A DNA stretch of 61,585 nt, filler included, from Collodictyon triciliatum (GCA_043381765.1; 24 parts of 24 records of this genome joined end to end with filler, not necessarily neighbours in it), one strand, 5' to 3'; counted from the whole stretch's first letter, positions 15,754 through 61,186 are shown. The notes: a model not told the origin generated them from the sequence alone. Translations and numbers: made by a program.

Positions 15754-15806
15754 ATAATTTAAGTATCTTTTTTTTTCCTTTATTCGATTATAATTTAAGT
15801 ATCTTT
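15754..15806 (-). mobile_element. 19-bp retroposed LINE 3' tip with 17-bp TSD
   Basis: ATAATTTAAGTATCTTT (15754-15770 and 15790-15806) flanks TTTTTTCCTTTATTCGATT, the reverse complement of AATCGAATAAAGG-A6. Confidence 0.8.
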
Positions 15807-15811
15807 AATAG

Positions 15812-17150
15812 AAAAAGCACAACACCACAGATAAATCCTCTTCTTTGATCTTTGGCTCTCTGAAAAAGATCGGCAAACCACCAAAACCTGAAGATAAGAA
15901 TACAATTATATACGGAAAAAACAAGTATTTGGGCATGCGCAAGGTTTTGATTCACCTATTTATTCACTTATTTTTTGTTCCATTTATTCACTCACATGTT
16001 TAATTTCTATCTCATTCACGGATTTTTCATATATATAACTCCTGGCATTTCAATATTTTCAGAAACTCTGCTGTGGATTTTACTACTTCACACTCATCAG
16101 ACACCCTTTGGAGCGTCTTTTATCGAAATATGTTTCTCACAGTCCCCTGAATTCACACAAGCAATCTGTCCCATCAACAAGTTTTTATGATTATCTCATT
16201 CGAAATTCGAAAACAGAACACGCCAACGAACAATGCAAGCATCTCGGGATTGCGAGCAAATCTGTGTGTATACATACATTTCTTATACATATGTATTTGC
16301 GATTACCAGATTGACTAAAGTCCTAGAAAACCATAGGAAATCCCTTTGATTGTGGATTCTTTCGATCTTGTAATTGTTACCGACATGTTTGATGAAGGAT
16401 TGCTGCTTTTAAAGGACGAGTTTGAGATCGACACCATTTCATACAGCCCTCGAAGGGTATTTTTGAATTGATTTATTTTCTTGATACATCGAGGTAGTTT
16501 ATTAGTTCACTTTTTCGCTGTAATTCGTATCGGACAGGTCACTCAAGGTGTCCCTAAAGTCAAAGATATAGACAAGAGATACCGAACTTTGGTTGAATTG
16601 TAAAGATCTTTTAAATTATTTTATTTTTTATGGCAGATATCCATAATCTGAAAATTCCCTTATCGGCGAGCCCTTTTTCTGATGCATTTGTTTTACTTTT
16701 CAAAGACATGCGCTTCTTTCGCTCAAAGTTTAATTCCCAATATTCTCACACCCAGAACAAACTCGTGTGATGTTGCACTTTACAGCTACGCTAAGAGAAA
16801 AATGACCGAGAGACTAAACAAACGGTACGAAATACAATTTACGCGGTACAAACATAATTATATGATTTAGCTTAATGGTCGCTTAGGCAGTGTATATTTT
16901 CTTGCGATATTCATGATTATTGATTTTACCGGAAAAGGGAATAATTATATATATGTCCTTTTGCAGCTACAAGAGCAACAAGGCTATTCAGGAGAAGTTG
17001 AGTGATTTTCGTAGCGGACTCCCCAAAGCTGTGTGCGTAGATGATGAGCTCCCATCTGAAGAAAACGAGCCCCTTTGTGACTTGATGGATTACAAAAAGA
17101 TAGCCAACTACCTAAGTCAGATATTTTTGTATCCAGAAATCGAGCACTAA
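15812..17150 (+). CDS. Sulfotransferase, galactose-3-O-sulfotransferase-like (3' exons)
   Basis: Exons contain YYFTLIRHPLERLLSKY (3'-phosphate-binding motif), FDLVIVTDMFDEGLLLLK and NSCDVALYSYAK; stop codon at 17148-17150. Confidence 0.75.
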
Positions 17151-18634
17151 GCACAGAATACAGAATAAACAATACCAAACTAATTTATGATATCCCCTGT
17201 TTTTTTTTTTAACCCAATCACCACAAATATAATGCATAGTACAGTGGTTCTGCTTGAAATACATGGATCATATTAATTATTATATTTTTTGGGGCCTCAT
17301 GTGCCACAAGAACATGATCCTTAGTGTTGATATTTCGACTTTATTTTTATTGTATTTGTCTATTGTGTGTATTTGTGTATTTTAATATTATTTTAAAAGG
17401 AGAAAAACAAAATACGAGAAATATCACTGGGTCCATAGAATCGCTTAGGGATGCAATTTATTACGTCGACTAGTTGTGCACAATTATCGTTTGAGGAAAA
17501 AAAAAACCAGTGCTATAAGACAGCCCATGCCAAGGGATACTAATGTTGCACCTCCATAGATGCCACCGTAAACCTATTATATTGCATAATATACGACTTC
17601 GAATCAAATAAAGAGAAAAATAGTATACTAACTACAATTCCTAATGAGAAAACATATTGATAAATCCTAAATGTGTGTGTGAGTGGGGGGGGGGGGCGGA
17701 GGCTGTTGTTCTGTATTAGTTCATACTATAAATATACTGTAATGGAGATAATTTTAAAATCAATATGAATTTTTTTTCTTACCCAAGTTTCCTTCGTATC
17801 CGCTTATTATCTCCATAAATAATACCATTCCAAAATCCCTCTAGTGGCCCGAAGAAAAAGTGACACCAGTAGAGCCAGAACTGATGTGGAAAGAAACGCA
17901 GAATAACGAGTTTGTATGTACTAACCAAAGCTGAAGCTTTCATTTGCTTTCATTATTTCCTTTTTCTTATGTTTTTTTTTGTTGATTAAGAAAGCTTACA
18001 TTTGGGGACGGATCAAAAAATATGTAAATTCTATTAGCCATCGGCATCGCCCAAGTTACGATAAAAACGAGAANNNNNNNNNNNNNNNNNNNNNNNNNNN
18101 NNNNNNNNNNNNNNNNNTTAATTAATTAANNNNNNNNNNNNNNNNNNNNNNNNNNNNNNNNNNNNNNNNNNNNACAAACACACAAACACACAAACACACA
18201 AACACACAAACACACAAACACACAAACACACAAACACACAAACACACAAACACACAAACACACAAACACACAAACAACCTTCCTCCTCTCTGCCGGTCCA
18301 CTTGCCGGCCGTCTCTCACTTGTCGTCCTTGCAGGTGTCCCACCGGGAGAGACTCAGCGCCGCCCGTTCGCATGCGTCCTGCGCAGTCCCCGCTCTGCCC
18401 CTCGAGCCCCACAATAAACCCAGTATTCGAAAACCCACGAAAATAAGCGTATTTTCCTCGAGGCCTTTTCTTGCTCATTTCGCGGAAGCGTGGCCCCAGC
18501 ACCTTCCCGGAAGATGCGCGTTTGTCTGCTATATTCGCCTGTCGTGCTGGCGGACGAAACCTAAGTGTCAGCCACAAACCAAAGCTCATCTCATCTGAAA
18601 AGAGCATTCGATCGTTCGCCAAGGATTCACACGG

Positions 18635-20436
18635 ATGGGCGGCGAGCAAAGTCGTCCGACCAGAGGCAGGGAGGAAGAAAGACAAGGAACTTGTGATGCG
18701 TTCGAGGCGCGAAGAATCGGCCAGTTGGTTGGCGAAGTAGCAAGGAAGTACGCCCAACGCTCAGATCAGGTTCTCATACACATGCACCTCCGCATACACA
18801 TACACAAGTACATACCCACAGCTCTTTAAAATGCCAGATAGCAGAGAGTTTCGAGGTTGCTGACTGGGACGCAGCAAAACACTTTGCGCAATTGATCGAT
18901 CATTTGCTCGGAGAGACAGAAGAGGTAGCCCTAACATGCGCACGCAGACACCTGCGCACCAAAGGGAAAGCAATGGAATTATGCCGAGACGCAATCCATG
19001 GGCGTCTACGAGAGACACGCGAGGCCGTTGCCGGGCTTCGGGCCGGAGGAAGCAGGGCGCCTGGCTGGTTTGGGCGGACAGGGCGCTCATGCAGAATCCT
19101 GCACTTGGAGGCAATAGAGAGCCGAGAGGAAAATGCACAGATGAGCCGGGCCATAGAGCCGCACCAGTGGGGGACAGCATTGCTGGGCATGTGGCTGGAG
19201 TTTACAAGAAGCCGCGAATTATCTCTCCACAGATCTTTGCATCGGTCGCTTGCATGCGGGACGGAGCCCGAGAAGCCGACCGCATACAGGCTGCTTTGCA
19301 CAGGCGGCGTCGGGAATCGTGGGCGAGGCTGGTGGCAGCTGTCCGGGCCACTTGGTCTGGCGGCTGCTGTTCACATGGGGCGCCCAAACACGACGCAGGC
19401 GGATATCGGCAGTCCGGCTGCCACAAACGCCGCCGTGCTTGTTTATGTCGTCGACAGCCAGAACGGGCGTATCCAGATTCTGGACGGGGCAACCATGCAG
19501 TTTGTGGGCACGCTGCCACCAGATGCAAAGGAGGGACTTACACGCGGCCAGGGCCTGCTTGTGCACCCCGTTGATCTTGCTGTTCATCTTCCAACCGAGA
19601 TTTGGGGATCTGAACAGCCCAAAGCGCAGGTTGCTGTGGCTGATGTGCTGGGCAATAGGATTGTTGTTTTTCTTCACCAACCAGGCACTGAAGCCCCCAC
19701 TGGCTCGACAGGCAATGTCCCAACCAACGCACCGATTGTTTACAGGAGACGGGATGAAATGATTGTTCCTGGATGCTCGCATGGATCGACTTTTGTTGCA
19801 CCGCGCGCAGTGTGTTTCACGCAAACAGGCGATGTGATTGTTGCCGATGGCGGCTACGGGCCTCGTATCCATTGCTTTCGACTTCCCAGCAAGAGTACAG
19901 AGACCGGCAAAATCCTTCCTATATGGAGAATGGGACCTCCATGTTCCCCCGATTGTACTCTAGCTTATGGCACCGACACTGCACCTATGATACCAGCAGT
20001 TGCAGCTGTAGAGTCTCTTTGTGTGTCGCCCCGAAACAACGTCTTATTTCTGTGTCGACATGACCACCGCAGGGTCCATATTCTCGATGCCAGCAACGGA
20101 CAGTACTTACAGACAATAGGACTTCCGATCCCCACATCGGTATCGTTCAGCTCTCCGATGCCTGGCTCAGTTGCATCGCCGGGAGATAGCAATCTATCCA
20201 GTGAAGGAGTAGATGGGCCAATTGCCCCTCGTTTGGCATGTACTCCGGATGCAGGCTTTATTCTTGTGGACAAAACACGTTCTGCATTAGACATGTATGA
20301 CCCACAAGGGAACCATGTAGACTCTGTCTTTGCACCATCACCAACCGCGGCAGTCTTTGGCGCAGATTTTAATATATACGTGTCATGCGCACACGATCAT
20401 GCCATCCGGCAGTATGCATTTTCTTTTACTTCATAA
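18635..20436 (+). CDS. NHL-repeat beta-propeller protein with predicted N-myristoylation (2 exons: 18635-18769, 18838-20436)
   Basis: A 68-nt GT-AG intron joins MGGEQS...RSDQ in frame to the long ORF. NHL-like repeats: VYVVDSQNGRIQILD, HPVDLAV..VAVADVLGNRIVVF, FVAPRAVCFTQTGDVIVADG and PTAAVFGADFNIYVS. Confidence 0.72.
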
Positions 20437-28637: not shown

Positions 28638-29254
28638 GAGAAAATGGGTGTGGCCTTTCTCGCTAATGATTTGAATGAAGGGCATGCCACTAGAAAAAAA
28701 ACTACAGGAAAAGCGCGCCATGCAACTTATTGTGCCTGTATGTTGCTTTCTGCACAGATTGTTGAGATGGGCTCGACAGTTAAGATTTTTAGAATAAAAA
28801 AAAAGTTGCTTTCTGTATGGATCATCGCTGGAAGGAGAAGGCAAAGCTTTTGGGTTGGGTGAGGGATGTGTTGGGTATTCGGCTGTGGCGAGGTTAACAA
28901 GCGCACAATAGCGTACTTTATTATTATATAATAGCACACTTTTGATGACTAATATAGTGTTATAATAAATAAAATTTGCAATAATGATTCTAAAATAATT
29001 TATATAATATATTTTCCATATTCTAATATTCGGAGTTTGGTTTGTATTTTTTTGTATGTGTGAACCTGTACCGTTCTCTCTGGCTCTGGTGCAAAGAACC
29101 CCCGAGTCATCAATACCCCTCATTTACCACTTCCCCAGCGGATCTCACGAAAAAAAGAAAAGAAATCGAACGATCAAAGTGAAAAGCATAGTTGATTCAT
29201 AATATGGTTGTTCTTGGCGAAGAGTTACAAGTGACAACCTTTACTCTCCATATT

Positions 29255-29321
29255 ATCTTTGTAGCGTTACTCTGCACAAAATTGTAAGGAATAAAGGAAA
29301 AAAAATCTTTGTAGCGTTGCT
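29255..29321 (+). mobile_element. 33-bp poly(A)-tailed micro-insertion (variant body) with 17-bp TSD
   Basis: ATCTTTGTAGCGTT(A/G)CT (29255-29271 and 29305-29321) flanks CTGCACAAAATTGTAAGGAATAAAGG(A)n. Confidence 0.7.
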
Positions 29322-30911: not shown

Positions 30912-31033
30912 TCTCGTGCAATACAGCTTCCTGAACAGTCTGCTGAAACACGCTCGCATTCTTCGCTACTCTGACCGCAAGCGAAGAGAGATGTGGGAAT
31001 GTGTCGTAAGATATCTCCCACAGCATATCCAAC
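30912..31033 (+). mobile_element. Fragment of the L1/Tx1-like LINE ORF2 C-terminus
   Basis: Closely matches the reverse complement of about 51522-51642 and encodes VQYSFLNSLLKHARILRYSDRKRREMWECVVRYLPQHIQ. Confidence 0.85.
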
Positions 31034-39198: not shown

Positions 39199-39250
39199 TA
39201 GGATCATCTGTGTATTTTTTCCCTTTATTCGATTAGGATCATCTGTATAT
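39199..39250 (-). mobile_element. 18-bp retroposed LINE 3' tip with 17-bp TSD (1 mismatch)
   Basis: TAGGATCATCTGT(G/A)TAT (39199-39215 and 39234-39250) flanks TTTTTCCCTTTATTCGAT. Confidence 0.78.
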
Positions 39251-46073: not shown

Positions 46074-46424
46074 NNNNNNNNNNNNNNNNNNNNNNNNNNN
46101 NNNNNNNNNNNNNNNNNTTAATTAATTAANNNNNNNNNNNNNNNNNNNNNNNNNNNNNNNNNNNNNNNNNNNNAGAAGTAAAAAAAGAAGTAAAAAAAGA
46201 AGTAAAAAAAGAAGTAAAAAAAGAAGTAAAAAAAGAAGTAAAAAAAGAAGTAAAAAAAGAAGTAAAAAAAGAAGTAAAAAAAGAAGTAAAAAAGAAGTAA
46301 AAAAAGAAGTAAAAAAAGAAGTAAAAAAAGAAGTAAAAAAAGAAGTAAAAAAAGAAGTAAAAAAGAAGTAAAAAAAGAAGTAAAAGTGAAAGAAAAAGAA
46401 AAAGAAAAAGAAAGAAAAGACTCA

Positions 46425-48184
46425 CCAATAACACCCATCGTCCCAAGGGCTGTCCATTTAGTACTGACGCATCCTCCGATGCAAATACCGCATATGGTCA
46501 ACCAAATAAACCATGAAGAGGTCAAAGGTTCCAAGTTCTATGTCAAACAGAAGATTGGAGAATAACTGATTGTTTTCCAAAGAAACAAAAAAAAAGCATT
46601 TTTTAGGGTTAAAAAAAACTAATTGTGTATAGAAACCCTGATATGAGAATGTGAGTAAAATGATGCCGCCACAAAGAACATCAAAATGGCGTCAGTGACG
46701 ATGATTCGAGATTCAATAAGAAGGCACATATCGAATATCAGGAAAGCTGAACTGACGGCAGCAGCAAAAACGTTAACGCTGCAACGAGTACATAATTTAG
46801 CCTTAACTATCAAGAATTCATATATTCGTAGTACAACTAAACATTAAATGAAGATAACAGGTAATTGTCTTATTTTTCGAAAAGAAAGATTAAATAAATT
46901 GACAAAGCACAAAAAAAAAAACTAGCAAAATAATAACTTTTTTTCCTTTATTCGATTCAAAGAGCAAAATAATAACTTAAAGTTACCGAAACTCTCGCAA
47001 AGTCAAGTAAACTAAGACTGGTACAAAGCCACCAGATATAGCAGGTAGCATGCGAAGGTAATAATATGCTTCTCCATCATAGACATTCGTTATTTTCTCA
47101 AAATCGTAGTGTCCGTCATATCTATGGAGAAGGGATAATCGTCCTTGAATGAAAAGAAAAGCTCAAAATTATACACTTGATACTTCGTTTTATGTGGTTC
47201 AAATCAGGACGTACCCCGTAAGCAAAGACACGTAGTAAAAAAGAATCTTTGTAAGTGGGGGATGAATATCGAAAAAGTATTTCCCCTAGTTTGGTCAATT
47301 TTCGAGCGTAAGAATAGAAACGGCTTCTTCTAAGGATTTATATAAAAGAAACTACCAATCACTTGAAAGATTGTGTTCGGCATACACCGATGTTCAAATC
47401 TAATATAACTATCTTTTACCCTCAAATAGTTGTTGGTAAATCCTCCAAAATGCACTTCGTCGAATATTACCTGATAGTTTTATAATGTCAAATGCAAAAA
47501 TAAATTAAAATTATATAATAAAAAATTACAAAAACGAAATGAAAAATTACCACCGGATTTATAAAAACGAGAACAAATACAATAATGTATTATAAGTTAA
47601 TAAATGCAACCAACTTCTTCGAGTAATATAAAAGAGTGAATGAGGGGATTTAAGCTGACTTTTTTTATGCCAGAAAAATAACTTTAACAAAAGATTATAT
47701 GCCCGTGATGTGTTCGGGGGGAAAGAGGCGAAGGTAATCCACTTTGCTATAAGATGATACAGTATCGGATGTGAAAAGAGAGGTAAGAAGAAAAAAAAAC
47801 CTCGTTGGGAAACTCTAGGCGATAAAACCGGGTTGAGAAAGAAATCAGCAGAAGCACAAACGCTGCGATATCGAAGGATGGCGGGGCAAACCAAAGCGCC
47901 ACTCGAAACAGCCTGGGCAACATAATCCCAAAAGAATTCTGCAGCAGCGTCTCTGCAGAGCATGTGTCGGGCTCTGTCTTTCTGCGTGTTTCATTCTGCC
48001 TCGCCCACTCAAGAAAACTCGACCGGACAGATTCCAGTGGAGTCCAGTTACTGGCATCGGAAGATGTGCTGCATGATTCGCATATCTGGGACGTTGTGCG
48101 AGATTCGGGGTCTTTTGAGGATGCGCGGACCGACTCATTGGCAGGGTCGTCTGTGTCGCGTCGAGTCCCGCTTCTTTGGTGCAT
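46425..48184 (-). CDS. Dolichyl-phosphate-mannose:protein O-mannosyltransferase (PMT/POMT family), 5' part
   Basis: Reads TRFYRLEFPNE/VIFDEVHFGGFTNNY (catalytic DE motif), YFFDIHPPLTK, GYDG, LLIESRIIVTDAILMFF and STKWTALGT. Confidence 0.92.
46924..46978 (-). mobile_element. 23-bp retroposed LINE 3' tip with perfect 16-bp TSD, inside a PMT intron
   Basis: AGCAAAATAATAACTT (46924-46939 and 46963-46978) flanks TTTTTCCTTTATTCGATTCAAAG. Confidence 0.85.
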
Positions 48185-48598: not shown

Positions 48599-48644
<46 letters not shown>

Positions 48645-49812: not shown

Positions 49813-49905
49813 ATACCCCTTCATCACACATTAGAGTACTTATTTCTCCCGTTATTCGAGTCAAAGTGCAGCGAGGATACCCCTTCATCACACATTAGAG
49901 TACTT
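49813..49905 (-). mobile_element. 35-bp retroposed LINE 3' tip with perfect 29-bp TSD
   Basis: ATACCCCTTCATCACACATTAGAGTACTT (49813-49841 and 49877-49905) flanks the reverse complement of CCTCGCTGCACTTTGACTCGAATAACGGGAGAAAT. Confidence 0.88.
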
Positions 49906-50538
49906 TGCTAAAAAGTATTTTTCTTTTTTATTCCAGAGCTAATATGTTGGGGCAAATAAGGTTCCTAATATCCAGCCGTCTGGCTTATCAACGACCGCGG
50001 TGGAAGCGACAGTTTCTTCGGGATTGTTTTGCACAACCCTTTTCGATGACGTTCCGTGGGATTAATTTATGGGGATGTAGTAAGCATTATAGAAGAAATG
50101 CTGCCCTTGTAAGTGGAACTGGTATATTAAATATATCAGAAGTATCCTTGGGATAAGTACAGTTTCACCTTTTGCGCATCCTATCAGGATTTCTTGCCTT
50201 CGTAAATCAGCACTCTCTCACTTCATATCACAATCAGATTTCGTTACAAAGCCCCAGGGGCTCCAAAGTGCGCAGCAAGAATACTGGAAACCACCCTTTT
50301 GATTGCGTTTAATGGGATAGAAATCGAGGAGGGTCCAAATTATCCAAAAACACCACGGGAGATATCATAGAATGCTAATGGTCAATATCAGAATCAAAGA
50401 GATTTATAAATAGTCAAATTATTTGGTACTTCATCTCGTATCATTATATTGATGTAGAGAACCACCTGAATACCTAAGTCAAGTATGATTTCTTTAGCCA
50501 TCCAAACGTTATCAGTAGCTTTTATTTTATCTGATATT

Positions 50539-50616
50539 ATGATATACTGTATTCATACCTCGCTACACTTTGAATCGAATAAAGGCAAAAAAAAAAAATG
50601 ATAAACTGTATTCATA
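50539..50616 (+). mobile_element. 40-bp retroposed LINE 3' tip with poly(A) and 19-bp TSD (1 mismatch)
   Basis: ATGATA(T/A)ACTGTATTCATA (50539-50557 and 50598-50616) flanks CCTCGCTACACTTTGAATCGAATAAAGGC(A)n. Confidence 0.88.
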
Positions 50617-51347
50617 GGAGTATCCATGGAGATAAAAAGTGCAAACCCCTTAATCAGAAGGTAATAAACTTACTTGTATGCTCCATTATCTTCACATCCT
50701 TAGTCCCATCAAATTGTTACGCAACATCTTTACTTGAGCAAAATAACAAAACAAAAAAATCCTCATTATTTTTTTTGTATTTTTCATTCAGGGTTTATGA
50801 TATTCTACATAATACGAATTATTCAGATACACATCTAATCCATTAGGTACAATATCATTCGGCAATACAGCAAGAGTGTGTTTAAAGTCGCCAGAAAATA
50901 GAACCTTTACCATCCAATTATGACCAATTCCGTCGGACTGTAAAACAAAAAACAAAACAAACAAACAAACTATAAACCCGCCCTTCCCTTGAATCGAATA
51001 AAAGGAGAAAAAACCTCCAATTATATCACTGTTTTCTCCTATATCTTTTATAGTTATTGCTGACTTCTCCAACGACCTTTCTGTAAGATGTGGTAGATTC
51101 ATTCCATATGATAATCTTGCATACTTGGAGCAAATGCCCTTTACCGGTATTCTATTCATTGCACTTTTGGCTGAAAAATACGGTAGAATCTTAATTAGAG
51201 TCAGCTTTCTGCCACCTTGTAGGACATTTATAGCTATACCTGATGATNNNNNNNNNNNNNNNNNNNNNNNNNNNNNNNNNNNNNNNNNNNNTTAATTAAT
51301 TAANNNNNNNNNNNNNNNNNNNNNNNNNNNNNNNNNNNNNNNNNNNN

Positions 51348-53300
51348 AAAGTGCAGCGAGGTTGTGCCGTACAAAGAAGGGAATAAAAGTGCGCATGGTA
51401 GATAGCAAACGCGAGTAGGAGAAGACACTACCGTGGAGAGGGTAGCACTGGAAAGAAGTCAGTGATAGCGAGCTGGTCAGGTGGGCGTCCCAACTGGTTG
51501 ATTTGTTGTGTGGACAGCAGGGGTTGAATATTCTGCGGGAGACACCGCACGACACATTCCCACATCTCTCTTCGCTTGCGGTCTGAGTAGCGAAGAACGC
51601 GAGTGTGTTTCAGCAGGCTATTCAGGAAGCTTTATTGCACGACGCTTTCCAGCCTGGATACATTGATTTCTCGTTCGGGTGAATCATCAGAGCGAGAGAA
51701 TGCGCGCAAAATCCATAAGAACCACAGCATATGTCCCTTTGTGACTGCCCAGAGTATTCCAGAGTCGTGGGTCATTTACTATTATTATGGGCCAAACAGG
51801 ATGTCGGACGTGCTGAGTTGGTTGGGAGCATAATCAAGCTCAGTGAGCATCTCGTGGGTAGATTCTGTCACTTTTTGAGCCAGAGCACTTCACAAATGTG
51901 TGTTCGATAGAGTCATCTCCACTATGGCACATGGTGCATTTTGGAGAGGTCGTTGCTGAGTCGATGTTTTTCAATGTAGTCTGCTTTCTTTCCGACTCTT
52001 ATCTTGTCTGGTTCGATAAAATCACCCCTGAGCTCAACAAGACAATAGATTTTAACAGCGCAAGTGTACCTTGCACGTGGTCAAGTTTATTTTGGGTTCC
52101 GAATCCTCATAATAAATCAAATGTGACCGACATAGCACGATTAAAAAAATGTGATTGAAATGAAACTATTGGAAAACAAAGACGACTTTGTATGCCTTTA
52201 TGATAAGTAATAACCAATGCTTTCCTTCGTAAGCCACAAGAATATGTGCGGTCAACAAGGTGCTGCGATGTAAGCCCGAAAGTGCTGCGAAGATGACGCA
52301 ACAATCAAGGTGGAAACTCTGCCCTCAGCCTGAGAATCGTTATTAGAAGACAAGAAAACACGGCAGTCTTCATTAAGAATGATTCTTTCAGTTCTTCAAC
52401 TGCTTACACATTCCCATGACTGCCAAAACTATAATTGAAGTTGTATAGCCATCCAACATCACACTGGAACTCAGCTGGAACGACATCTTGGAATCCTGAA
52501 GTATTTCATTCCAATAAAAGTCAACAGGATAAGGTCGAGGGAATATTGTGAGCGAAATACTCGTTACCTTTGATGAAGAGCCAGGAAAAAAAATGGGAAA
52601 ATACCCTTCCATCAATGTCATTCATGCTGTCTTGCGGAGATACGGGCCCTCAAAGAGACTGACGTATCATCGACTCTCCCGACAAGCTTAAAAAATAAAG
52701 AAAGAAGAAAATATGGCAAACAAGGTCAACGCATCAAGCAAATGATTAGCATGCCAACCACTACCAATCCAGTGGCCTCTAATAAGCAAAATGTTACCGC
52801 GTGTACCTCGAGCTTCACGACAACAGCAATCAATTACAGCGCCGATTCTTGGCTAGGTATTTCCCCTTTCGAGGATAGCAAAACCCCCCAATATTGATTT
52901 TTAGTAATTAAATATTTTTCCAAACCGAACCAAATAATTGAAAAAAAAAATAATAGACATATTTTCAAAGAGTTTGTAAAATATATTCAAGTTGTTTTTT
53001 GGACAAATCTGAGCAAACAACGGGCATATCCTAATCCTCCGCACCCGTTCTTGGTTTGTAATGCTCGTGCTAACCCCTTTTCTCTTCAAAATGAGCAGCT
53101 ATTCTAGAGTAAGTAGCACCTGTGCAAAGATTGGGCAATAGGAGAGAAACGAGTCCTCAAGCAGATGTTCAAGAAAAGCTCTGGCGCTCAAGAAGAGACG
53201 AAAGACCCTAGTCTGGGAAATATACATAAAAGTCATCAAAGTTAGAAGATAAAGCCAATTTCGTCGAATTATGATGGGAGGACTTGCCACCGTAGTTATA
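51348..53300 (-). mobile_element. Decayed L1/Tx1-like LINE, 3' half (possible RT remnant, CCHC zf-RVT finger, 3' UTR)
   Basis: Reads PKCTMCHSGDDSIEHTFVKC (zf-RVT), LWAVTKGHMLWFLW and SFLNSLLKH...WECVV. The 3' UTR ends ...GTACGGCACAACCTCGCTGCACTTT at the contig edge. The portion above about 52100 is heavily decayed and its limit is uncertain. Confidence 0.75.
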
Positions 53301-54229
53301 GATTGCAGAAAATACTGTCGAGCGAGAGGTTGTATTTGTCAGGTTTTTTTTATTCTTCCTTTCAATTTTGTGCAGGATGGTGGAATTGCATTTGTCAGGT
53401 AAGCACTGGTTGCCCCAGAGCATCAACATCTTCGTCACCGGCGTAGATTATGGACAACCCCTAGTGCATATCATAAAAATAGGAGACAAGGTAACGCGAT
53501 ATAACTTATTCTCCTGATTATTATTATTTATTTTTTTTTTTGGCCCGCATGCGTGCAAGCAGACATAAGACTTGCATCAGCCATCTAGCTATCGCATGCG
53601 CTCACAATTTTATTATGATTACAAACTCCGCTATCAGTACTTGTAATGTTGCGATTCATAGCGGGAGTATATTGGTTTTCTGAATATCTTATAAAATCCA
53701 CATTAGATTATCAAATAAGACATGAGTAAGCTTCGATTCGCCCACAAAAACAAAAACAAAAACAAAAACAAAAAACAAAAACAAAAAACAAAAACAAAAA
53801 ACAAAAAACAAAAAACAAAAAACAAAAAACAAAANNNNNNNNNNNNNNNNNNNNNNNNNNNNNNNNNNNNNNNNNNNNTTAATTAATTAANNNNNNNNNN
53901 NNNNNNNNNNNNNNNNNNNNNNNNNNNNNNNNNNTTTTTTTTGTTTTTTTTTTTTTGTTTTTTGTTTTTTTTTTTTGTTTTCTTTTTTTGTTTTCTTTTT
54001 GTTTTTTGTTTTCTTTTTGTTTTTTGTTTTCTTTTTGTTTTTTGTTTTTTGTTTTTTGTTTTTTGTTTTTTTAACTTATCTATTCAACCTGTTGATTCAT
54101 ATCGCAGTATATACAAGGTGGGTTCCATTAACATCCTACTATGACTCGATATAGAATTGTCATTCAAAGGTTTAAAGTGCGGCTGCATTGTGTTGTTTTG
54201 TCGCTTTATGTGTTTAGAGATATATGTAC

Positions 54230-54906
54230 ATAGATGAGGCTTCCCATTACGAGCTGGAGACAAGCACGAACCCCGCAAGTCCTTTCAAATCACCGCTCTC
54301 TAATGCTCAATATCACCAATAGGGAGCTATGGATAGGCACGCGCGCGGCAAAAGCTGTCAAAGTCTCCCAACAATGCACACTTTGCAGCAACGGTGATGA
54401 ATCCATTGAGCACACATTTTTGCAATGTCCCATCGCTCAAAACCTGCGCGAAACAGCCGGTGAGATTCTTCGGCTGACACTGAAGACGGCTGCAGCTGTT
54501 TGTCCAATCCAGGCGATGTTTGGGCCTCTGCAACAGCTGCGTCCAGAGGTGCGAAAACATTCTGGGTAGTGATACGAGGCCATTCGCTATGGACTATGTG
54601 GATAGCAAACATATGTTCACGCAAAGCAAGACTCAACAACCAGCCACCCATTCCTGATAATAGGCTGGATGGCATCATACAAATCTCCTTCATCAGCTTT
54701 CTTCGCCACCTGTACGTTCTCTATTACTCAGACCCTGTGAGAAGAGACAGGTGAAAGGAAGCTGAGAAAGATATTAAAGCTTGCTTTGTCTCTTTCATGC
54801 AGGCACAAGACCCAGCCTACAGATCAAACCGCAGGATGCAATTCCTGATTACCGACTACTTCTACGCCATCCGGCCAACAAGTAGCGTTCATGCAAACGA
54901 AGTCTA
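54230..54906 (+). mobile_element. LINE ORF2 C-terminal fragment (zf-RVT), related subfamily
   Basis: Reads LWIG...QQCTLCSNGDESIEHTFLQCPIA, then after a frameshift FWVVIRGHSLWTMW...ISFISFLRH...ITDYF. It is homologous in motif order to 51420-52000. Confidence 0.85.
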
Positions 54907-55179
54907 GCGAACCAAAGCCAACATCTTCACCATCCTGCACAAAAGTGAAAGGAAGCGCAAAAAAAGAAGAAAGAAGACCCCGGATAAGTCATACGCCGCA
55001 TAACGCATATTACAAAGTCTCGCCTCCAAAAAAATGAAGTAAGATACCCATCCGTGCAGAACGTTGAGCAGCGAGTACCCGGACAATGACAGCGACGACC
55101 AGCAAGTGGACAAAGACACCGGGCACCGCGACACAGAATGGGGCCTGGGTAGGAGACTCGGGCGGAGCTGAAGCAACTG

Positions 55180-56125
55180 CTCCACCTGGGAATCCCCACA
55201 GTATTGACATATCTGCTGCTGACTCTACTGCCCACTGCGGACCAGATGATGGTGGGGCACCAAACAAAAATGAGCTGGCAGCAGCAGCGCTGAGCAACAC
55301 ATGTTTCAAATTGTCGTGGTTCTTTTGCGTCGGTGTGAGCACCCATCTCGACATCCCGGGGACAGGATGCAACCATCGCGCGGCTGACGGGCGACTACTG
55401 CCTCTGGCTGATTCCCGGGGTGTCGTTTCTTGTTGTGTACTCGGTCCTGCAGAAGCACCAGCAGGCGCAAGGCTGTATGGCTCCGTGTCTGGCCCTGGGC
55501 CTTGCTGCCAACTTCTTCAACATCCCAGCAAACTATGCGCTCATTTGCACTGCAGAACTCGGGCTCACAGGCACAGCCATGGCGACGTCTCTGATGCGCA
55601 CGATGCTCAGAGCGGGCTTTGCCTGGTGCGTGTGACAGACGGATGTATGTGACGAGGCAGCAGCCGGAGCCATGGCCGCGCTGGAGGTCTCGAACTTCCA
55701 AGGAGCCGCGGTTCTGGTCAAGGCAGCGGGTGACATTGTTGCACTGGATGCCCATGCCATCCTCCTGACCATCTGCAGCCTGCTCTACGTGGCGCTGGCC
55801 ATCTGCGTGGCTGCCCTTGTCGGACTTGTGCTGCTGCCCTTCGTTGCGACCCTAATCCATCTCACGCGTGCCTATGTGCCTGCGGCATTCACTAGGGATG
55901 TGCAGCCGCCCTCATCCCAGTCGGCACCCTCTTCCACATTGCCGACAGGCTGCAGGCATCGCGGCCAGGGCTGTCACTGTCTGGATGCTGTGTGGTATCT
56001 TCTCGGCTACTCGCTCGTCGCCATGTCTCTGGCGGCACTCCTGGCCTTACGCCTCCCTTTTCTGCTCGACCTCTGCATCGGCCTCGTCGGTATCTGGTGG
56101 GCGCTCTTTGCCGTCGCATTAGCCC
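55180..56125 (+). pseudogene. MATE-family efflux transporter pseudogene (no introns seen; frameshifts and deletions)
   Basis: Reads GIPTVLTYLL..DQMMVGH / ELAAAALSNTCF, LQKHQQAQG..ANFFNIPANYALI..LGLTGTAMATS, ALDAHAIL and GLVGIWWAL. A stop at 55633-55635 and several frame changes interrupt it. Confidence 0.8.
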
Positions 56126-56843
56126 CACACGGACAGGCACGCTTGCGCCCTCGACGCTTCTACTTATCTCCTTCAGGACGTCTGCAGCAGTGCACGGCTA
56201 TCCGTCTCAGTCGATGATTCTTTGGTAGGCGTAAAGTCGCAAAAATGGTGAGGTCTTCTATTCTCTTCTTCCTCCTCCTGCTCTGTTATCGATACCAATA
56301 CAAATATATGTTCCGGTCTGTGCTCTCTGGGTTCGATTATGGCTGAAAGGAGACAAAGTGCTCTGTGGGTGCAGGATTAAGTGGATGAGATGATTTCTTT
56401 TTTTTTTTTTTTTTTTTTNNNNNNNNNNNNNNNNNNNNNNNNNNNNNNNNNNNNNNNNNNNNTTAATTAATTAANNNNNNNNNNNNNNNNNNNNNNNNNN
56501 NNNNNNNNNNNNNNNNNNATTTAGTTTATGCGACAATAACACAAGCAAACTATGTATGTAATCAAACAAAACATGGGGAGAAAATCGTCAGGGTAGGTGC
56601 CTACAGATAGAAAAATGACAAGCAAACGAACAAAACCATATTTTCTAGCAGGAAAACTATCATATCCAATCAGGCATATGGTTTGTGGTAGCGGTGAAGG
56701 GTGTTTTCATTTTTGTGTATATCAGACCCCGTTAAGGGATTCCATTTTAGATTGTGAGAGACCATCACACTGATGAAGCATGGCGCGAAAGAAGGATTTA
56801 TCATGGGCATTGTCTATAGGTTACAAAAGAAATGGCTGCCAGC

Positions 56844-58175
56844 TTAGAATGCACGGCTGTGGTGGGATGTTGCTTGGTCAAACTTGTTTTCCAGGACAAA
56901 GCGGTAGCGGACACCACCAGCACGAACGCGCTCGAGGGCAGTATTGATGTTTTGGATGGGCAGAACTCCAATCCAAGGACTGATGTTGTACTCAGAAGCA
57001 AATCGCAACATTTCTTTGATTTTGAAACTGGAGCCAATGACGCTGCCACACAGGCCGACTTGGCTCATGATAAGATTGAAGGGCGCGATTTTGGTGAGTT
57101 CCTCAGGGAGACAAACCACGACCATTTTTCTGTGAGTGCGGAAAAGTGACAGATACCCGCCCTAGTTCATGTCGTTGCTGTTGGCTATCACAAGGATAAC
57201 ATCCAACTAATTAATTCTGACCGTAAAACAAAGTTCCTTCATTTATTTTAGCAATAGATAAACACATATTGACGAACTTTTGTGTTTGATTCGCAAACGG
57301 TCTTTGCAGCAGCAGCGATTTCGGCAGGGTTGCTACTGTTGATGAAGTGGTTCGCTCCAAGCTTGATAGCTTCCTCTTTCTTTTTCTCTGAGTGAGAAAT
57401 GGCGGTTACTTCGCCTCCTAGGGCCTGTATTTTTATTTTATTTTTTGTTTTAAATATATAAACACGCGAATCCTCTTTAAAGTGATATTTGCCGTGAAGT
57501 TATTTTATTTTGTAACATAAATATCATAGTGAAAACAAACCTTGGCAAACTGAATTCCGAAATGCCCATGTCCTCCGATACTAATGATTCCCACCTTGAT
57601 TCCGTTGCTTGCACGGTCGCTGCTTATAAAAAAAAACCGTAAAAATTTAGCGCTTCGTTTCTTGTATCAAGAAATTGTGTAACTTAGGTATCTGTGAGTC
57701 CAAATGATGTCCCTACCGCCTCAGGGCAGTGGAAACTGTGATTTCAGCGCATAGAAGAGGAGCAGCAACATCAGAAGGGATACTCTCTGGGAAGAGGAAG
57801 GCGAAGTCGGACAAGAGACGGATACGGTCAGCATATCCGTCCCTTGAGAGCTCACCGTCAGCGTAGGGTATATTGTGGGTGAAGACTTTCTTTGGGAAGC
57901 ATTGATTATCCTATGCTGCACTCATAAAAATCGGGCTTCAGGCAGGCAAAACACTGACGCCCACACCCACTCGGTCATCTACCTTGAAGGAAGGTCGATA
58001 TTGATGAGAGGTGAGCGCAAGACTACGTAACATGCAAAGCTTTACATGGATGGCATATTTTTCATGAGACTTACCATCAAGTTCGTCATGTTATAACCTG
58101 CAGCAACAACCTCGCCGATAACCTCATGTCCAACCACCATAAGATAGACTGACCTCTTCCAGTCGTTATCGATGG
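56844..58175 (-). pseudogene. NADP-dependent zinc alcohol dehydrogenase (CAD/ADH6/YahK-like) unprocessed pseudogene
   Basis: Reads VVGHEVIGEV, DRVGVG, GYAD...AAPLLCAEITV, IGGHGHFGIQFAK/ALGGEV and GVRYRFVL. Introns are retained. There is an in-frame TAG near 57162, frameshifts near 57960 and 57905, and no upstream GxCHSD motif. Confidence 0.82.
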
Positions 58176-59262
58176 TATAGTATTTGTGAAGTTGTGAATA
58201 ATACGGGTAAGTGGAGCAACAACATCAGAGTCTATGGTGCGGCGTTGCTTCTCATCACAAGCTGAGCTTTACAACCTGCTGCAGTCTCTGTGTGTTTGTG
58301 ACAAAGGTCACTCACCCGACCCGCAGATTCTCAGTGGGTGATTTTGAACTCAAAGCTGCGCGGGCCAAGGATGCGGGGGTGATACGTTTATGGCTCAAGA
58401 GCTACTCCGGCACTAAATGCGGCATAGGAGTGGAATGAAACGCTAGTGTCAACGGCCATATGGCTGCAATTTATATGGGATAGATGCGGGGTAAGTTGAA
58501 AGAAAATAAAGCAATCTTGATGGGCATTATCATTGGCGTGCTGGGTTGAAATATCATTCCCAAGATGCTCTGACAAGGTTGAGGCAGGGGATGAAAAATA
58601 AATAATGGTTATTTAGATTGTGGTTTTTAAGATTCTCGTCACTTTATTGTTTTTCTTTTGCAGTTGGTTTGCTGTTGATAGGTCAATTCATTGAGAAAAC
58701 AGAGATATTTCACGCGTGGTGCTCGGCAAAGCAATCCACTTATCGTTTAGATTTCATAAGGAAATATCTTACCTCTTCAATCTTCTGTCTTATGTCAAAC
58801 CGGACGCCTATTTGTGTGTTCCTAAAGCTGGACATGCGTTTTTTTATATGTTCTGTTAAATCCCAGCCGGTAATGGCGAACCACATTCGAAACGCATTAG
58901 GTGAAGTCCCTTTGGCGAGGTGGCAGGCAGGATGACATGTGGGCCCTATTGGGTCAAAGGTATCCCAGAAGCTTCTGGAAGCTTTCGCCTTCAGTGCAAC
59001 CTNNNNNNNNNNNNNNNNNNNNNNNNNNNNNNNNNNNNNNNNNNNNTTAATTAATTAANNNNNNNNNNNNNNNNNNNNNNNNNNNNNNNNNNNNNNNNNN
59101 NNTTTTTTGGTTTTTTGGTTTTTTGGTTTTTTGGTTTTTTGGTTTTTTGGTTTTTTGGTTTTTTGGTTTTTTGGTTTTTTGGTTTTTTGGTTTTTTGTTT
59201 TGGTTGTGCTACATACAAATTCTAGGGTAACAAAAGATATAGCAACTGTGATAAGGTCAAAC

Positions 59263-61186
59263 CAGCATCAATGGAGCGAAGGAGGAAGTCGACTGCTTTT
59301 TTCTGATTCGGAAAGGCCGGGTTTTGGTGATAGAGCCAGCCAAGCTGTTGCAATACTTTTGCGTTTGGAGTGTCCTGAATCGCTTTTTCGTAACAATCTT
59401 TGGCTTCGTGATACTACAGAGTGAAGTTGATAAAGGAGGTATAATGCAGGAATTCAATGGGGACGAGAGTGGCTTTTCTCTTGATTTTTATCAGCTATTA
59501 GATTTCAAATCTAACTCATGTCACTTGGTATGCGATCTTTTGATATTACGCTACAAAATAATAATTATAATTAAAAACAATAATAAACCTGCTTCTGTAA
59601 TTCGTATATCTGACCCATCTGAAAGTGAATATCAGATTCATTGACGGAGCGGGGCATATTCTTCAAAAGAAATTGGAGGCACTGTAGGAATTAAATTTAG
59701 AAATCCATAATAGAAGAATGATTTATGGGATATGATTTCTCGCATGAATATTCTAGTACATATAGATGTATGACAAATGAGAGGAAAGGAAAATGAAAAA
59801 AGACAACATAATTACAGCTAGTATATGACATGGTGAGTGAATTGTAAACCAGAATATTGAAGAAAAATGGAATTAGGGAGGAGAAAAACCAAGTGTGGTT
59901 AAGGTGGAATCCTTACCTCTTTGGCCTCGTCGTATTTGAGTTGGTGTTTGTGAATAACGGCAAGCTTGAAATAAACATCCGAGGCCTTTTCGAACTTGGG
60001 GTCCATCTTGAGAACAGCAGTAAAAGCTTCTTCTGCGTGGTCGTACGACTGGAATTTTTCATAGAGTACTCCGATACCATACCACAGGTTGGGGTCCTAC
60101 TCAAATCAGGATTCAATGAGTCATACAGAGAATTAAGTTTTTACCCGCAAAGTGTAAAACTTTAGATGAGTGAGAAAGGAATATCTACATTCATGAGTCT
60201 GACGTTTTGCTTAACGTATAATTGTTTTCTTTGAATCGAATAAAGGAAAAATATATATAATTGTTTTGTACAGGCACATTAAATAGCTAAATGAAACAAT
60301 GACACGCTATAATAATGACGTACACGGGGATTGGACAGGTAAGAAAGGGCATGCTGATACGCCTTGTACGCCTGTTGCAAATCTTCCATGCGTAAATAAC
60401 AATGACCCAAAATCCCCCATGCGTCTCCTTGGGTGGGTTCCTTGGCAATTATTTTGAGAAGACATTCCACAGCCTGATGAAGACAACGGCAATCAATATC
60501 AATATCAATATCAATATCAATATCAATATCAATATCAATATCAATATCAATATCAATATCAATATCAAAACAACAAAAGGGATATCGAGACATCAATTTT
60601 TAATCAAGACGAAGTTGTTTGTTGTTGTTTTTGGGGAGTATGGGCTGAGAAAAAGTGCACGGAGTTAGTTAAAGGAATCAGGAGGGAAACCTTCTGGTGT
60701 GCATCTTTGCGGACATAAATGTTTGCCACTTGAATAAGGGCGCGTGTGTTTGTGGGATTATGCTGGAGAGCATTGTCGTATGCAAAGAGGGCTTTGTCCA
60801 AGTCCTGCATGAGCTCGTTGAGACTCGCTAAAAAGAAATCGGCTGTTTTAGCTGAAACTGCGTGCTTATGCTTGCGGGAATTGGTATGAAGAAGTGACGA
60901 GACTCTCCAGCAGGGTTTCGAGTCAGGAACAGGGAAGAGAACTCGATAAAAGTCGAGAGGTTTTTGGATCATGATCGCGGAAGAGAGAGAGAGAAGAGAG
61001 AACAAACAGAAAAAGAAAAAGAAAAAGAAAAAGAAAAAGGTATTAAGAAAAGGAGAGAGAAATAAGAGAAAAAGAAAAAGACAAACCTATCTGCAGCCAC
61101 GTTTGTTCGTTGGCCTGATTCAGCTTATCCACCAACTCGCGCGCAGCAGATGGCGCAGTGTTTGAGGCCGATTCCTTCCCGTTCAT
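59263..61186 (-). CDS. Cyc8/Ssn6-like TPR transcriptional co-repressor (5' part)
   Basis: Reads MNGKE...ANEQTWLQI / ASLNELMQDLDKALFAYDNALQHNP / GDAWGILGHCYLRMEDLQQAYKAYQHAL / DPNLWYGIGVLY / KVLQQLGWLYHQ. Confidence 0.88.
60217..60267 (+). mobile_element. 27-bp retroposed LINE 3' tip with 12-bp TSD, inside a Cyc8 intron
   Basis: TATAATTGTTTT (60217-60228 and 60256-60267) flanks CTTTGAATCGAATAAAGGAAAAATATA. Confidence 0.8.

What the first reader, a model, noticed from the sequence alone, without database searches (positions are those of the whole stretch)
15754..60267. Ultra-short (18-40 bp) TSD-flanked retro-insertions, all matching the 3' tip of one LINE family
Seen: six loci on five unrelated contigs (15754, 39199, 46924, 49813, 50539, 60217) carry nested pieces of CCTCGCTGCACTTTGAATCGAATAAAGG(A)n between direct repeats of 17, 17, 16, 29, 19 and 12 bp. 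Weaker candidates lie at 14922-14963 and 17586-17633. The longest pieces overlap the 3' UTR of the LINE at 51348-51361 (AAAGTGCAGCGAGG). Several sites read TT|A on the element strand. Established: poly(A), variable TSDs, 5' truncation and TT|A nicking are hallmarks of target-primed reverse transcription by L1-clade elements. Inference: this LINE very often aborts after fewer than 40 nt, leaving roughly one micro-insertion per 10 kb here. The inserts are often no longer than their TSDs and too short for standard repeat annotation. This would be a steady source of short duplications and AATAAA signals in introns.
Basis: partly seen in the sequence, partly recalled or inferred. Interest (0 to 1): 0.82.

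Follow-up and report, generated by a model that had tools for sequence, protein, structure and literature searches.

The report
Tiny LINE-tail insertions with target duplications
A jumping gene (LINE) in this AT-rich freshwater eukaryote has repeatedly left only the last 13-45 bases of its tail plus a short poly(A), each copy framed by a duplicated piece of the target, so ordinary retrotransposition here mostly makes tiny scars that standard repeat annotation would miss.

Summary
All six named loci carry nested 3' pieces (13, 13, 18, 18, 28 and 28 nt) of one tail, followed by an A-run and flanked by direct repeats of 12-29 bp. A screen that ignored the tail sequence found this geometry far above shuffled and mirror-image controls.

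The link to the LINE holds. An outside copy (L023) is 89.6% identical over 614 nt to the LINE at 51348-51958. It runs straight on into GAATCGAATAAAGG(A)10.

A contig from a public freshwater run joins 50545 to 50605. It skips exactly the insert plus one 12-nt repeat, which is an empty-site allele.

Three things are new here:
- A second, related LINE (3' end at 54234-54962) left micro-inserts at 29255 and 53334.
- A ninth insert at 28742 is unassigned.
- The 5' ends cluster at -13, -18 and -28.

Best reading: endonuclease-dependent target-primed reverse transcription with extreme 5' truncation. Why synthesis stops so early is unknown. The L1-clade label is only inferred, and the density (9 per 59.6 kb) comes from a biased sample of ~2.5-kb contigs. 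This is a new variant of a known kind, of moderate interest.

The parts
15754..15806 (-). Family A micro-insert. Repeats at 15754-15770 and 15790-15806 (17/17). Insert 15771-15789 is AATCGAATAAAGG plus A6 (5' end at -13).
39199..39246 (-). Family A micro-insert. Repeats of 13 exact (17 with one mismatch). Insert 39212-39233 is (A)ATCGAATAAAGGG plus A6 plus TAC (5' end at -12/-13).
46924..46978 (-). Family A micro-insert. Repeats 16/16. Insert 46940-46962 is CTTTGAATCGAATAAAGG plus A5 (5' end at -18).
49813..49905 (-). Family A micro-insert. Repeats 29/29. Insert 49842-49876 is the 28-nt tail variant (GACTCG, AACGG) followed by GAGAAAT instead of a long A-run (5' end at -28).
50539..50616 (+). 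Family A micro-insert. Repeats of 19 with one mismatch (12 exact). The insert starts at 50558 with CCTCGCTACACTTTGAATCGAATAAAGGC plus A11-12 (5' end at -28). An empty-site joint 50545>50605 is seen in run X1.
60217..60267 (+). Family A micro-insert. Repeats 12/12 (T-rich). Insert 60229-60255 is CTTTGAATCGAATAAAGG plus A5 plus TATA (5' end at -18).
29255..29318 (+). Family B-like micro-insert. Repeats 14/14. Insert 29269-29304 is ACTCTGCACAAAATTGTAAGGAATAAAGG plus A7. Its 5' end lies at the position homologous to -28 of family A.
53334..53400 (-). Family B micro-insert. Repeats 11/11. Insert 53345-53389 (45 nt) matches the 3' end of LINE B at 89.5% over 38 nt.
28742..28815 (+). Unassigned micro-insert. 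Repeats 11/11. The 52-nt insert ends in AGAATAAA plus A-run. The source RNA is unknown (another LINE or an mRNA 3' end).
51348..51958 (-). LINE A, a 5'-truncated copy. It holds the C-terminal Cys/His knuckle of ORF2 and the 3' UTR. The contig ends 14 nt before the end of the tail (…CCTCGCTGCACTTT|).
30914..31033 (+). LINE A fragment running off the end of contig 12. It is 96.7% identical to L023 and 89.2% to contig 21. Its 5' truncation lies about 310-325 nt from the poly(A).
54234..54962 (+). LINE B. It holds the ORF2 C-terminus with zf-RVT (54234-54566) and a 3' UTR ending …CACCATCCTGCACAAAAGTGAAAGGAAGCGC(A)7.
14939..14952 (+). Diverged family A tail motif (2 mismatches) with only a 7-nt flanking repeat. 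It may be an old insert; this is not established.
17601..17614 (+). Diverged family A tail motif (2 mismatches) with only a 5-nt repeat. It may be an old insert; this is not established.
50991..51004 (+). Tail variant CCTTGAATCGAATAAAAGGAG plus A6. A possible insert of about 90 nt lies between TCCAATTAT repeats (9 exact). Uncertain.

Best explanation
These are genuine retrotransposition events of two related poly(A)-tailed LINEs with an ORF2 C-terminal zinc knuckle (families A and B).

Inferred mechanism: the element's endonuclease nicks the target, preferentially at TT|A. The freed 3' end primes reverse transcription on the poly(A) of the LINE RNA. Synthesis ends after only 13-45 nt of the 3' UTR tip. 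A staggered second-strand break 11-29 bp away and gap filling then seal the short cDNA, leaving repeat - tail piece - A-run - repeat.

Shown here:
- The nested collinear series.
- The A-run lying on the 3' side only.
- Repeats of variable length that are nearly all perfect.
- The LINE 3' end carrying the same tail.
- One empty-site allele.
- Many other loci with the same tail in public runs.

Inferred only: that an APE-type endonuclease and the element's own reverse transcriptase do this, and that the shortness reflects early termination or an early jump on full-length RNA rather than a template that was already short.
For: - **Nested series:** the alignment is.
- **Geometry:** 6 family A, 2 family B and 1 unassigned insert have repeats of 11-29 bp. 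Only 2-3 mismatches occur across all repeat pairs. The poly(A) is always next to the downstream repeat, and the mirror geometry scores 0 once tandem duplications are set aside.
- **LINE A tail:** its true 3' end is shown by L023.
- **LINE B tail:** its 3' end sits in the window beside zf-RVT.
- **Empty site:** run X1 shows the joint 50545>50605, skipping 59 nt with 12 nt shared, one contig, shorter side 41.
- **Other loci:** summed contig depth over 50504-50669 is 15-30 times that of the flanks in all 4 runs laid. In X4, contigs of 51-257 nt match only 50557/8-50592/5 and have other flanks.
- **Possible non-reference insert:** an X1 contig carries the reverse complement of the LINE A tail abutting 50783, where the window has none.
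- **Target site:** TT|A at 5 of 9 sites.
- **Relatives:** distant full-length relatives P0009-P0012 have Exo_endo_phos + RVT_1, and three of the four also have zf-RVT. The best solved match for P0009 is human LINE-1 ORF2p, E 3e-57.
Against: - No endonuclease or RT domain of family A or B is in the window, so the enzyme is inferred from relatives about 30% identical.
- The empty-site joint rests on one contig of depth 3.1 from a metagenome. The tool marks 'between: not known', so a close relative or a precise repeat-mediated deletion cannot be excluded.
- Two of the six A inserts lack a clean poly(A): 49842-49876 ends GAGAAAT, and 60229-60255 ends A5TATA.
- 5' ends cluster at three positions, which simple random abortion does not predict.
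- The excess of short over long copies is inflated. Long young repeats break a short-read assembly, and this window samples only contigs of about 2.5 kb.
Confidence: 0.8

Rival explanations
1. The enzyme and the TPRT route are the same, but the template is already short. Polyadenylated 3' fragments of LINE RNA would be what is copied to their 5' ends. Such fragments could be what remains under the bound ORF2 protein after 5'-to-3' decay or after cleavage. This would explain discrete insert lengths.
For: - The 5' ends of the six A inserts fall at only three positions (-13, -18, -28, two each). P is 0.003-0.015 under uniform nulls.
- The B-like insert at 29269 starts at the position homologous to -28.
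- In X4, three contigs that differ from one another (agreement 0.64) have non-LINE flanks directly before 50558, the -28 position.
- The last ~28 nt is the only part of the 3' UTR that aligns recognisably between families A and B.
- No insert of poly(A) alone or with fewer than 12 nt of tail was found, although the screen could have detected one.
- Microhomology at the 5' junction is only 0-1 nt (read).
Against: - The sample is small and the hot spots were noticed after the fact.
- Longer copies exist: 45 nt, about 42 nt in X1, about 320 nt and at least 610 nt.
- No RNA data on fragment ends is available.
- RT pausing or preferred jump sites would give the same pattern.
Confidence: 0.2
2. The source is a short non-autonomous element (SINE-like, or a tail-only transcript) that shares the LINE's 3' tail and is mobilised in trans, rather than the LINE RNA itself.
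For: - SINEs that borrow the 3' tail of a partner LINE are an established pattern (general knowledge).
- Pieces of 28 nt or less cannot tell the two sources apart.
- The recurrent 5' end at -28 could be a defined element start.
Against: - Inserts start at several nested positions.
- None is long enough to carry a promoter.
- The X1 loose end at 50783 and L023 agree with the LINE 3' UTR up to -42 and beyond.
- No dispersed repeat with this tail other than the LINE was found by self-BLAST of the window.
Confidence: 0.1
3. The motif is a host polyadenylation or regulatory signal, and the flanking repeats are coincidence.
For: A host gene's 3' end at 48940-48955 reads CTGAATAAAGGAAAAAC. RNA-like contigs of X2 and X3 go on into poly(A) at 48953/4. 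AATAAAGG is therefore also a genuine host signal context.
Against: - Repeats of 11-29 bp at 9 loci, against 0.2 expected.
- One empty-site allele.
- The same 28 nt ends a LINE.
- The host gene's end has no flanking repeat.
Confidence: 0.02
4. LINE cDNA or RNA was captured at random double-strand breaks during repair, without the endonuclease.
For: Short templated fillers at repaired breaks are known (general knowledge).
Against: Such events typically lack target-site duplications and a TT|A site. Here every insert has an 11-29 bp duplication, and 5 of 9 sites read TT|A.
Confidence: 0.03
5. The structures are assembly artefacts of a fragmented short-read assembly.
For: Contigs are short, and contig 21 breaks inside the tail.
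Against: - Assemblers do not create locus-specific duplications of 11-29 bp.
- Independent public runs contain the tail inside contigs with other flanks, and one contains an exact empty site.
Confidence: 0.02

Closest known systems
5'-truncated ('dead on arrival') L1-type LINE insertions made by target-primed reverse transcription
   Same: - Collinear with the element's 3' end.
- Poly(A) after an AATAAA signal.
- Target-site duplications of variable length around 11-29 bp.
- T-rich/A nick site.
- Presence/absence polymorphism.
Truncation as the majority outcome is standard. In an experimental human system, 76 of 99 new L1 insertions were 5'-truncated, with median length 712 bp (PMC11702581, passages read).
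   Different: Six of the eight family A copies in this window are only 13-28 nt before the A-run. That is one to two orders of magnitude shorter than the human median. Their 5' ends cluster at three positions.
Extreme truncation products reported in vertebrates
   Same: - A poly(T)-only insertion in human NF1 was interpreted as a severely truncated Alu, L1 or pseudogene (PMC3219598, passage read).
- About a third of stickleback Maui (L2) copies are shorter than 100 bp (PMC3381678, passage read).
   Different: Those are rare cases, or were attributed to fragmentation. Here the tiny inserts have intact duplications, are the commonest class in the sample, and none is poly(A) alone.
Models of LINE 5'-junction formation (microhomology-mediated joining, template jump; abortive retrotransposition)
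   Same: They give a route by which an unfinished cDNA is joined to the upstream target. Sources: PMC2912911 (passages read) and PMC4245944 (title and abstract only).
   Different: Microhomology at the six A junctions is only 0-1 nt (read). These models do not predict stops at fixed positions within 30 nt of the poly(A).
SINEs and processed pseudogenes mobilised in trans by LINEs
   Same: They also have a poly(A), target-site duplications and dependence on the LINE machinery. The unassigned insert at 28742 may be of this kind.
   Different: The pieces here are too short for a promoter or a defined head, and they match the LINE's own 3' UTR.

Membership tests
APE-type, poly(A)-tailed non-LTR retrotransposon (L1-like LINE): the source elements A and B | Reverse transcriptase domain in ORF2 | tested here: inconclusive
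   No RT domain of A or B lies in the window or in L023; only the C-terminal ~200 aa are present. Relatives P0009-P0012 are 26-38% identical over that part and carry RVT_1. A word-based search for longer relatives found none.
APE-type, poly(A)-tailed non-LTR retrotransposon (L1-like LINE): the source elements A and B | N-terminal apurinic-type endonuclease | tested here: inconclusive
   It is seen only in the distant relatives P0009-P0012 (Exo_endo_phos). It is supported indirectly by duplications of 11-29 bp and by TT|A at 5 of 9 sites.
APE-type, poly(A)-tailed non-LTR retrotransposon (L1-like LINE): the source elements A and B | C-terminal Cys/His zinc knuckle of ORF2 | tested here: met
   - Family B: zf-RVT, E 3.1e-8, at 54234-54566.
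- Family A: the motif C-x2-C-x8-H-x4-C is visible in the translations of contig 21 and L023.
- P0002, 62% identical to L023, scores zf-RVT at 8.5e-9.
APE-type, poly(A)-tailed non-LTR retrotransposon (L1-like LINE): the source elements A and B | 3' end with an AATAAA-type signal and a poly(A) tail | tested here: met
   - L023 ends …GAATCGAATAAAGG(A)10.
- The LINE B copy ends …GGAAGCGC(A)7, and its micro-inserts end …GAATAAA(A)n.
L1 clade in the strict phylogenetic sense | Placement of the RT within the L1 clade on a tree with reference clades | not testable with these tools
   No RT sequence of A or B is available, and no reference set of LINE clades is at hand. Among solved structures only L1 and R2 types are represented, so the best match of P0009 to human ORF2p does not discriminate among APE-type clades.
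TPRT insertion with 5' truncation: the micro-inserts themselves | Collinear with the source 3' end, with nested 5' ends | tested here: met
   Alignment A1 and blastn of L023 against the window.
TPRT insertion with 5' truncation: the micro-inserts themselves | Target-site duplication directly flanking the insert, with the A-run next to the 3' copy | tested here: met
   Nine loci, with shuffle and mirror controls.
TPRT insertion with 5' truncation: the micro-inserts themselves | Empty site equal to the filled site minus the insert and one duplication copy | tested here: met
   Shown for one locus only (50539-50616). The X1 joint skips 59 nt with 12 nt shared, in one contig. The 49813 locus had no useful cover.
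SINE | Defined 5' head with an internal pol III promoter | tested here: not met
   Inserts are 13-45 nt with several different 5' ends. Rfam found nothing at gathering thresholds in the window.

The most novel reading that the evidence does not exclude
In this organism the main product of LINE activity may be a discrete class of 'tail-only' retro-insertions with preferred 5' ends at -13, -18 and -28, rather than LINE copies. On this reading the template is the conserved ~28-nt terminal box plus poly(A). Either that box is all that remains of the RNA under the bound ORF2 protein, or the enzyme leaves the template at the edge of its footprint. The insertions would then be a natural in vivo footprint of a LINE initiation complex. 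They would also be a major, unannotated source of short duplications and ready-made polyadenylation signals across the genome.
Probability: 0.15. Interest if true: 0.75.

Novelty: new variant of a known kind. Interest (0 to 1): 0.5.

Why it matters
- **Annotation:** if the window is representative, LINE endonuclease and RT activity here is several times higher than counts of recognisable LINE copies suggest. Insertions of 19-52 nt fall below usual repeat-annotation limits, yet each adds 30-80 nt and a tandem-like duplication.
- **Gene expression:** each insert carries AATAAA plus an A-run. That context resembles a real host gene end in the same window (48940-48955). Sense-oriented inserts in transcribed DNA could cause premature polyadenylation. 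This was not tested.
- **Mechanism:** the clustered stops within 30 nt of the poly(A) offer a natural system for an old question: why and how TPRT products become 5'-truncated.
- **Recency:** nearly perfect duplications and a presence/absence polymorphism suggest the process is recent or ongoing.

Tried and rejected
- **Whole-genome census:** impossible, because no assembly is held.
- **Metagenome scan with the 18-nt tail motif:** of the 95 stretches returned, 94 are chance matches, mostly in prokaryote-like DNA. Only L023 is relevant.
- **Genome-contig scan:** two hits, both inside bacterial-looking coding sequence in MAGs, taken as chance. The viral-contig scan gave 0 hits.
- **Word-based search for longer relatives of the LINE A ORF:** none found. 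Cluster look-up gave no informative names.
- **Rfam on the whole window:** no match at gathering thresholds.
- **A stable RNA hairpin just upstream of -28 as a roadblock:** not supported. The LINE A 3' UTR folds no better than shuffles (z -0.19). LINE B is marginal (z -1.95).
- **Laying reads on 46174-61585:** Around the 49813 locus the bins 49674-49839 had depth 0 in all four runs, and 49840-49922 had only X4 at 1.98, so nothing can be said about that locus.
- **Depth as copy number:** the 15-30-fold summed depth over the tail is not a copy number.
- **Earlier findings of this scan:** none.
- **'The host is an animal':** my first reading, now dropped. A PRMT exon is 84% identical to an unnamed EukProt transcriptome protein. 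It is only ~53-61% identical to the named hits listed, which are oomycetes, fungi, algae and Acrasis. Runs that share words with contig 20 are mostly freshwater metagenomes, at shares of 0.05-0.16. A freshwater protist seems likely, but the taxon is not established.
- **Individual loci:** the motif hit at 21033 is taken as chance. The 65-nt candidate at 56541 is doubtful. The repeats at 5361-5422 and 15958-15992 are tandem duplications.
- **Literature:** four keyword searches turned up no paper describing abundant LINE-tail insertions of 50 nt or less. The searches were narrow and supplements are closed, so this is weak evidence that the phenomenon is unreported.


Full report
**What the window is.** It is not one locus. 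It is 24 contigs of 1985-2499 nt, in nearly descending order of length, joined by N44-TTAATTAATTAA-N44 spacers, with 59,561 non-N bases. Most contigs have 32-38% G+C. Exon-like ORFs match eukaryotic families: EML beta-propeller, PRMT, PB1 and ZZ, anoctamin, and TPR repeats with a marginal TT21-like ARM match (E 9.5e-4, below cutoff). A PRMT exon is 84% identical to an unnamed EukProt transcriptome protein. It is only ~53-61% identical to the named hits listed, which are oomycetes, fungi, algae and Acrasis. Runs sharing 31-mers with contig 20 are mostly freshwater metagenomes, at shares of 0.05-0.16. The host is therefore a eukaryote, probably a freshwater protist. The taxon is not established. 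No whole genome is held.

**The observation.** GAATCGAATAAAGG with up to 2 mismatches occurs 10 times, against 0.70 expected. Read in element orientation, the six named loci are:
- 15754-15806 (-): repeat 17/17, insert AATCGAATAAAGG+A6.
- 39199-39246 (-): 13 exact or 17 with one mismatch, insert (A)ATCGAATAAAGGG+A6+TAC.
- 46924-46978 (-): 16/16, insert CTTTGAATCGAATAAAGG+A5.
- 49813-49905 (-): 29/29, a 28-nt tail variant followed by GAGAAAT.
- 50539-50616 (+): 12 exact or 19 with one mismatch, 28-nt tail + C + A11-12.
- 60217-60267 (+): 12/12, insert CTTTGAATCGAATAAAGG+A5+TATA.

Alignment A1 shows them as a nested series ending at the same 3' position.

**Controls.** I screened without using the tail sequence.
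- Exact direct repeats of at least 10 nt, 10-80 nt apart: 17 pairs, against a mean of 4.9 (largest 10) in 30 Markov shuffles.
- Pairs whose spacer ends in at least five A next to the second repeat: 7, against 0.2 in shuffles. The mirror arrangement (A-run next to the first repeat) gave 0.
- Of the 17 pairs, 5 are parts of tandem arrays, 4 are short or tandem-duplication-like, and 8 are the inserts discussed here. Two of the 7 'TPRT-geometry' pairs (15992, 5422) are ambiguous tandem duplications.
- A second screen took 12-mers with up to 1 mismatch at all 588 A/T runs of at least 5. It gave 12 real against 3 mirror. The 3 mirror loci are those tandem duplications and are also among the 12. Of the other 9, five are family A, two family B, one unassigned (28742) and one doubtful (56541).
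- The 49813 locus has no A5 run and so appears only.

In total there are 9 convincing inserts in 59.6 kb, or one per 6.6 kb. Family A alone gives one per 9.9 kb.

**Link to the LINE, family A.** Contig 21 carries on its minus strand the end of a LINE ORF2 (C-x2-C-x8-H-x4-C) and a 3' UTR. It runs off the contig at …CCTCGCTGCACTTT. A metagenome scan with the tail motif returned 95 stretches, of which 94 are chance. The remaining one, L023, aligns to window 51958-51348 at 89.6% over 614 nt, ending exactly at the contig end. It then continues GAATCGAATAAAGG(A)10 and goes into unrelated sequence. In L023 the ORF stops about 95 nt before the poly(A). A further LINE A fragment lies at 30914-31033, cut by a contig end. 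Its 5' truncation is about 310-325 nt from the tail.

**A second family.** The same screen found inserts with another tail at 29255-29318 (+, repeat 14, insert 36 nt) and 53334-53400 (-, repeat 11, insert 45 nt). Their shared core, CTGCACAAAATTG(A/T)AAGGAA, also ends a LINE copy at 54234-54962 (+). That copy has a zf-RVT domain (E 3.1e-8) and ends in (A)7. LINE B is 68.8% identical to LINE A in the coding part. The two share only the terminal box of the 3' UTR (CTGCAC … TTGAA … GAATAAA). A ninth insert (28742-28815, 52 nt, ending AGAATAAA+A9) matches neither family.

**Evidence from public runs (contig 20 only, four runs, all Logan contigs).**
- One X1 contig joins 50545 to 50605. It skips 59 nt, with 12 nt fitting either side, depth 3.1 and shorter side 41. 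This equals the 47-nt insert plus one 12-nt repeat copy, so it is an empty-site allele. The tool marks 'between: not known', and it is a single contig.
- Summed depth in bins 50504-50669 is 15-30 times that of neighbouring bins in all four runs.
- In X4, contigs of 51-257 nt match only 50557/8-50592/5 internally. Loose ends before 50558 disagree with one another (agreement 0.64) and do not resemble the LINE. These are therefore other loci where the insert starts at -28.
- An X1 contig has the reverse complement of the LINE A tail (up to -42) directly before 50783, where the window has no insert. This may be a non-reference micro-insert.
- X2 and X3 behave like RNA: an 81-nt GT..AG skip, and poly(A) loose ends at 48953/4.

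**Mechanism.** The following features are the established signature of endonuclease-dependent target-primed reverse transcription:
- The A-run lies on the 3' side only.
- Duplications are 11-29 bp long.
- TT|A stands at 5 of 9 sites (P about 3e-4 at a generous null of 0.08).
- The inserts are collinear with the LINE 3' end.
- There is an exact empty site.

The enzyme itself is inferred. The closest full-length relatives (P0009-P0012, 26-38% identical over the C-terminal part) have Exo_endo_phos + RVT_1, three of the four also with zf-RVT. The best solved match for P0009 is human LINE-1 ORF2p, E 3.4e-57. Only L1 and R2 types are available among solved structures, so the strict 'L1 clade' label is untested.

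The unusual feature is the length. Family A copies in the window measure 13, 13, 18, 18, 28, 28, about 320 and at least 610 nt. The 5' ends are not spread evenly: six inserts fall at three positions (P 0.003-0.015, a post hoc test). The B-like insert at 29269 begins at the position homologous to -28. No poly(A)-only insert was found. Microhomology at the 5' junction is 0-1 nt (read). No stable RNA structure explains the stops. I favour early termination or an early jump on LINE RNA. I cannot exclude that short, protein-protected 3' RNA fragments are the templates.

**Caveats.**
- The ratio of micro to long copies is biased. Young long repeats break short-read assemblies, and the window samples only contigs of about 2.5 kb. 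Only 2 of 48 contig ends are LINE A.
- Genome-wide numbers are extrapolation.
- Effects on transcripts were not tested. A host gene end at 48940-48955 (CTGAATAAAGGAAAAAC, then poly(A) in RNA contigs) shows that the inserts carry a host-like polyadenylation context.

**What is known.**
- Severe 5' truncation is standard for LINEs. In an experimental human system, 76 of 99 new L1 insertions were truncated, with a median of 712 bp (PMC11702581, passages).
- A poly(T)-only insertion in NF1 was read as an extreme truncation (PMC3219598, passage).
- A third of stickleback Maui copies are under 100 bp (PMC3381678, passage).
- Abortive retrotransposition and 5'-junction models exist (PMC2912911, passages; PMC4245944, abstract only).
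- Four keyword searches found no report of a genome where duplication-flanked LINE tails of 50 nt or less are the commonest product. The searches were narrow and supplements are closed.

**Verdict.** This is a new variant of a known kind. Interest is 0.5.

Noticed in passing
window 48761-48955 (+): This is the end of a G+C-rich ORF (…IEEAKRT*) followed by a 3' UTR ending CTGAATAAAGGAAAAAC. RNA-like contigs of X2 and X3 cover it at depths of 240-1300 and go on into poly(A) at 48953/4. It looks like the 3' end of a highly expressed host gene whose polyadenylation context resembles the LINE tails.
   Followed up: partly
window 50783 (contig 20): One X1 contig carries 30 nt of the reverse complement of the LINE A tail (reaching -42) directly before 50783, where the window has no insert. 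It may be a non-reference micro-insert in another population.
   Followed up: partly
window 5196-6965 (-): A 590-aa open frame in a contig of 26-32% G+C has a D5_N (primase/helicase N-terminal-like) match, E 1.1e-5. It looks like a virus- or mobile-element-like gene. The contig also holds 20-nt tandem-like duplications at 5361-5422.
   Followed up: no
window 9228-9893 and 10388-11053: Contigs 4 and 5 share a 667-nt stretch at 91.8% identity, either a dispersed repeat or diverged alleles. Both contigs have about 46-48% G+C, unlike most of the window.
   Followed up: no
window 3981-5095 and 34190-34963: There are tandem arrays here: units of several hundred nt at 79-82% identity in contig 2, and a ~380-nt repeat at 88% inside the 687-aa open frame of contig 14 (33835-35895, -), which has no Pfam match.
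   Followed up: no
window 53730-53834, 53935-54070 and 50937-50976: (AAAAAC)n-type microsatellites sit at the end of contig 21 and, as the reverse complement, at the start of contig 22 just upstream of the LINE B copy. A similar (AAACA)n run lies just upstream of the tail variant at 50991.
   Followed up: no
window 49842-49876, 50991-51015, 17601-17620: Several tail copies read …AA(A/C)(G)GGAGAAA… instead of …AAAGG(A)n. This suggests a LINE A subfamily with a GAG interruption and a short A-run, rather than random decay. Likewise, CTGCAC (contig 21, 49849) versus CTACAC (L023, 50572) marks two subfamilies, and both left micro-inserts.
   Followed up: partly
window 18697-20433 (+): A 579-aa open frame in a contig of 52% G+C has only a weak NHL-repeat match. 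It may come from a different genomic compartment or a different organism than the AT-rich contigs.
   Followed up: no
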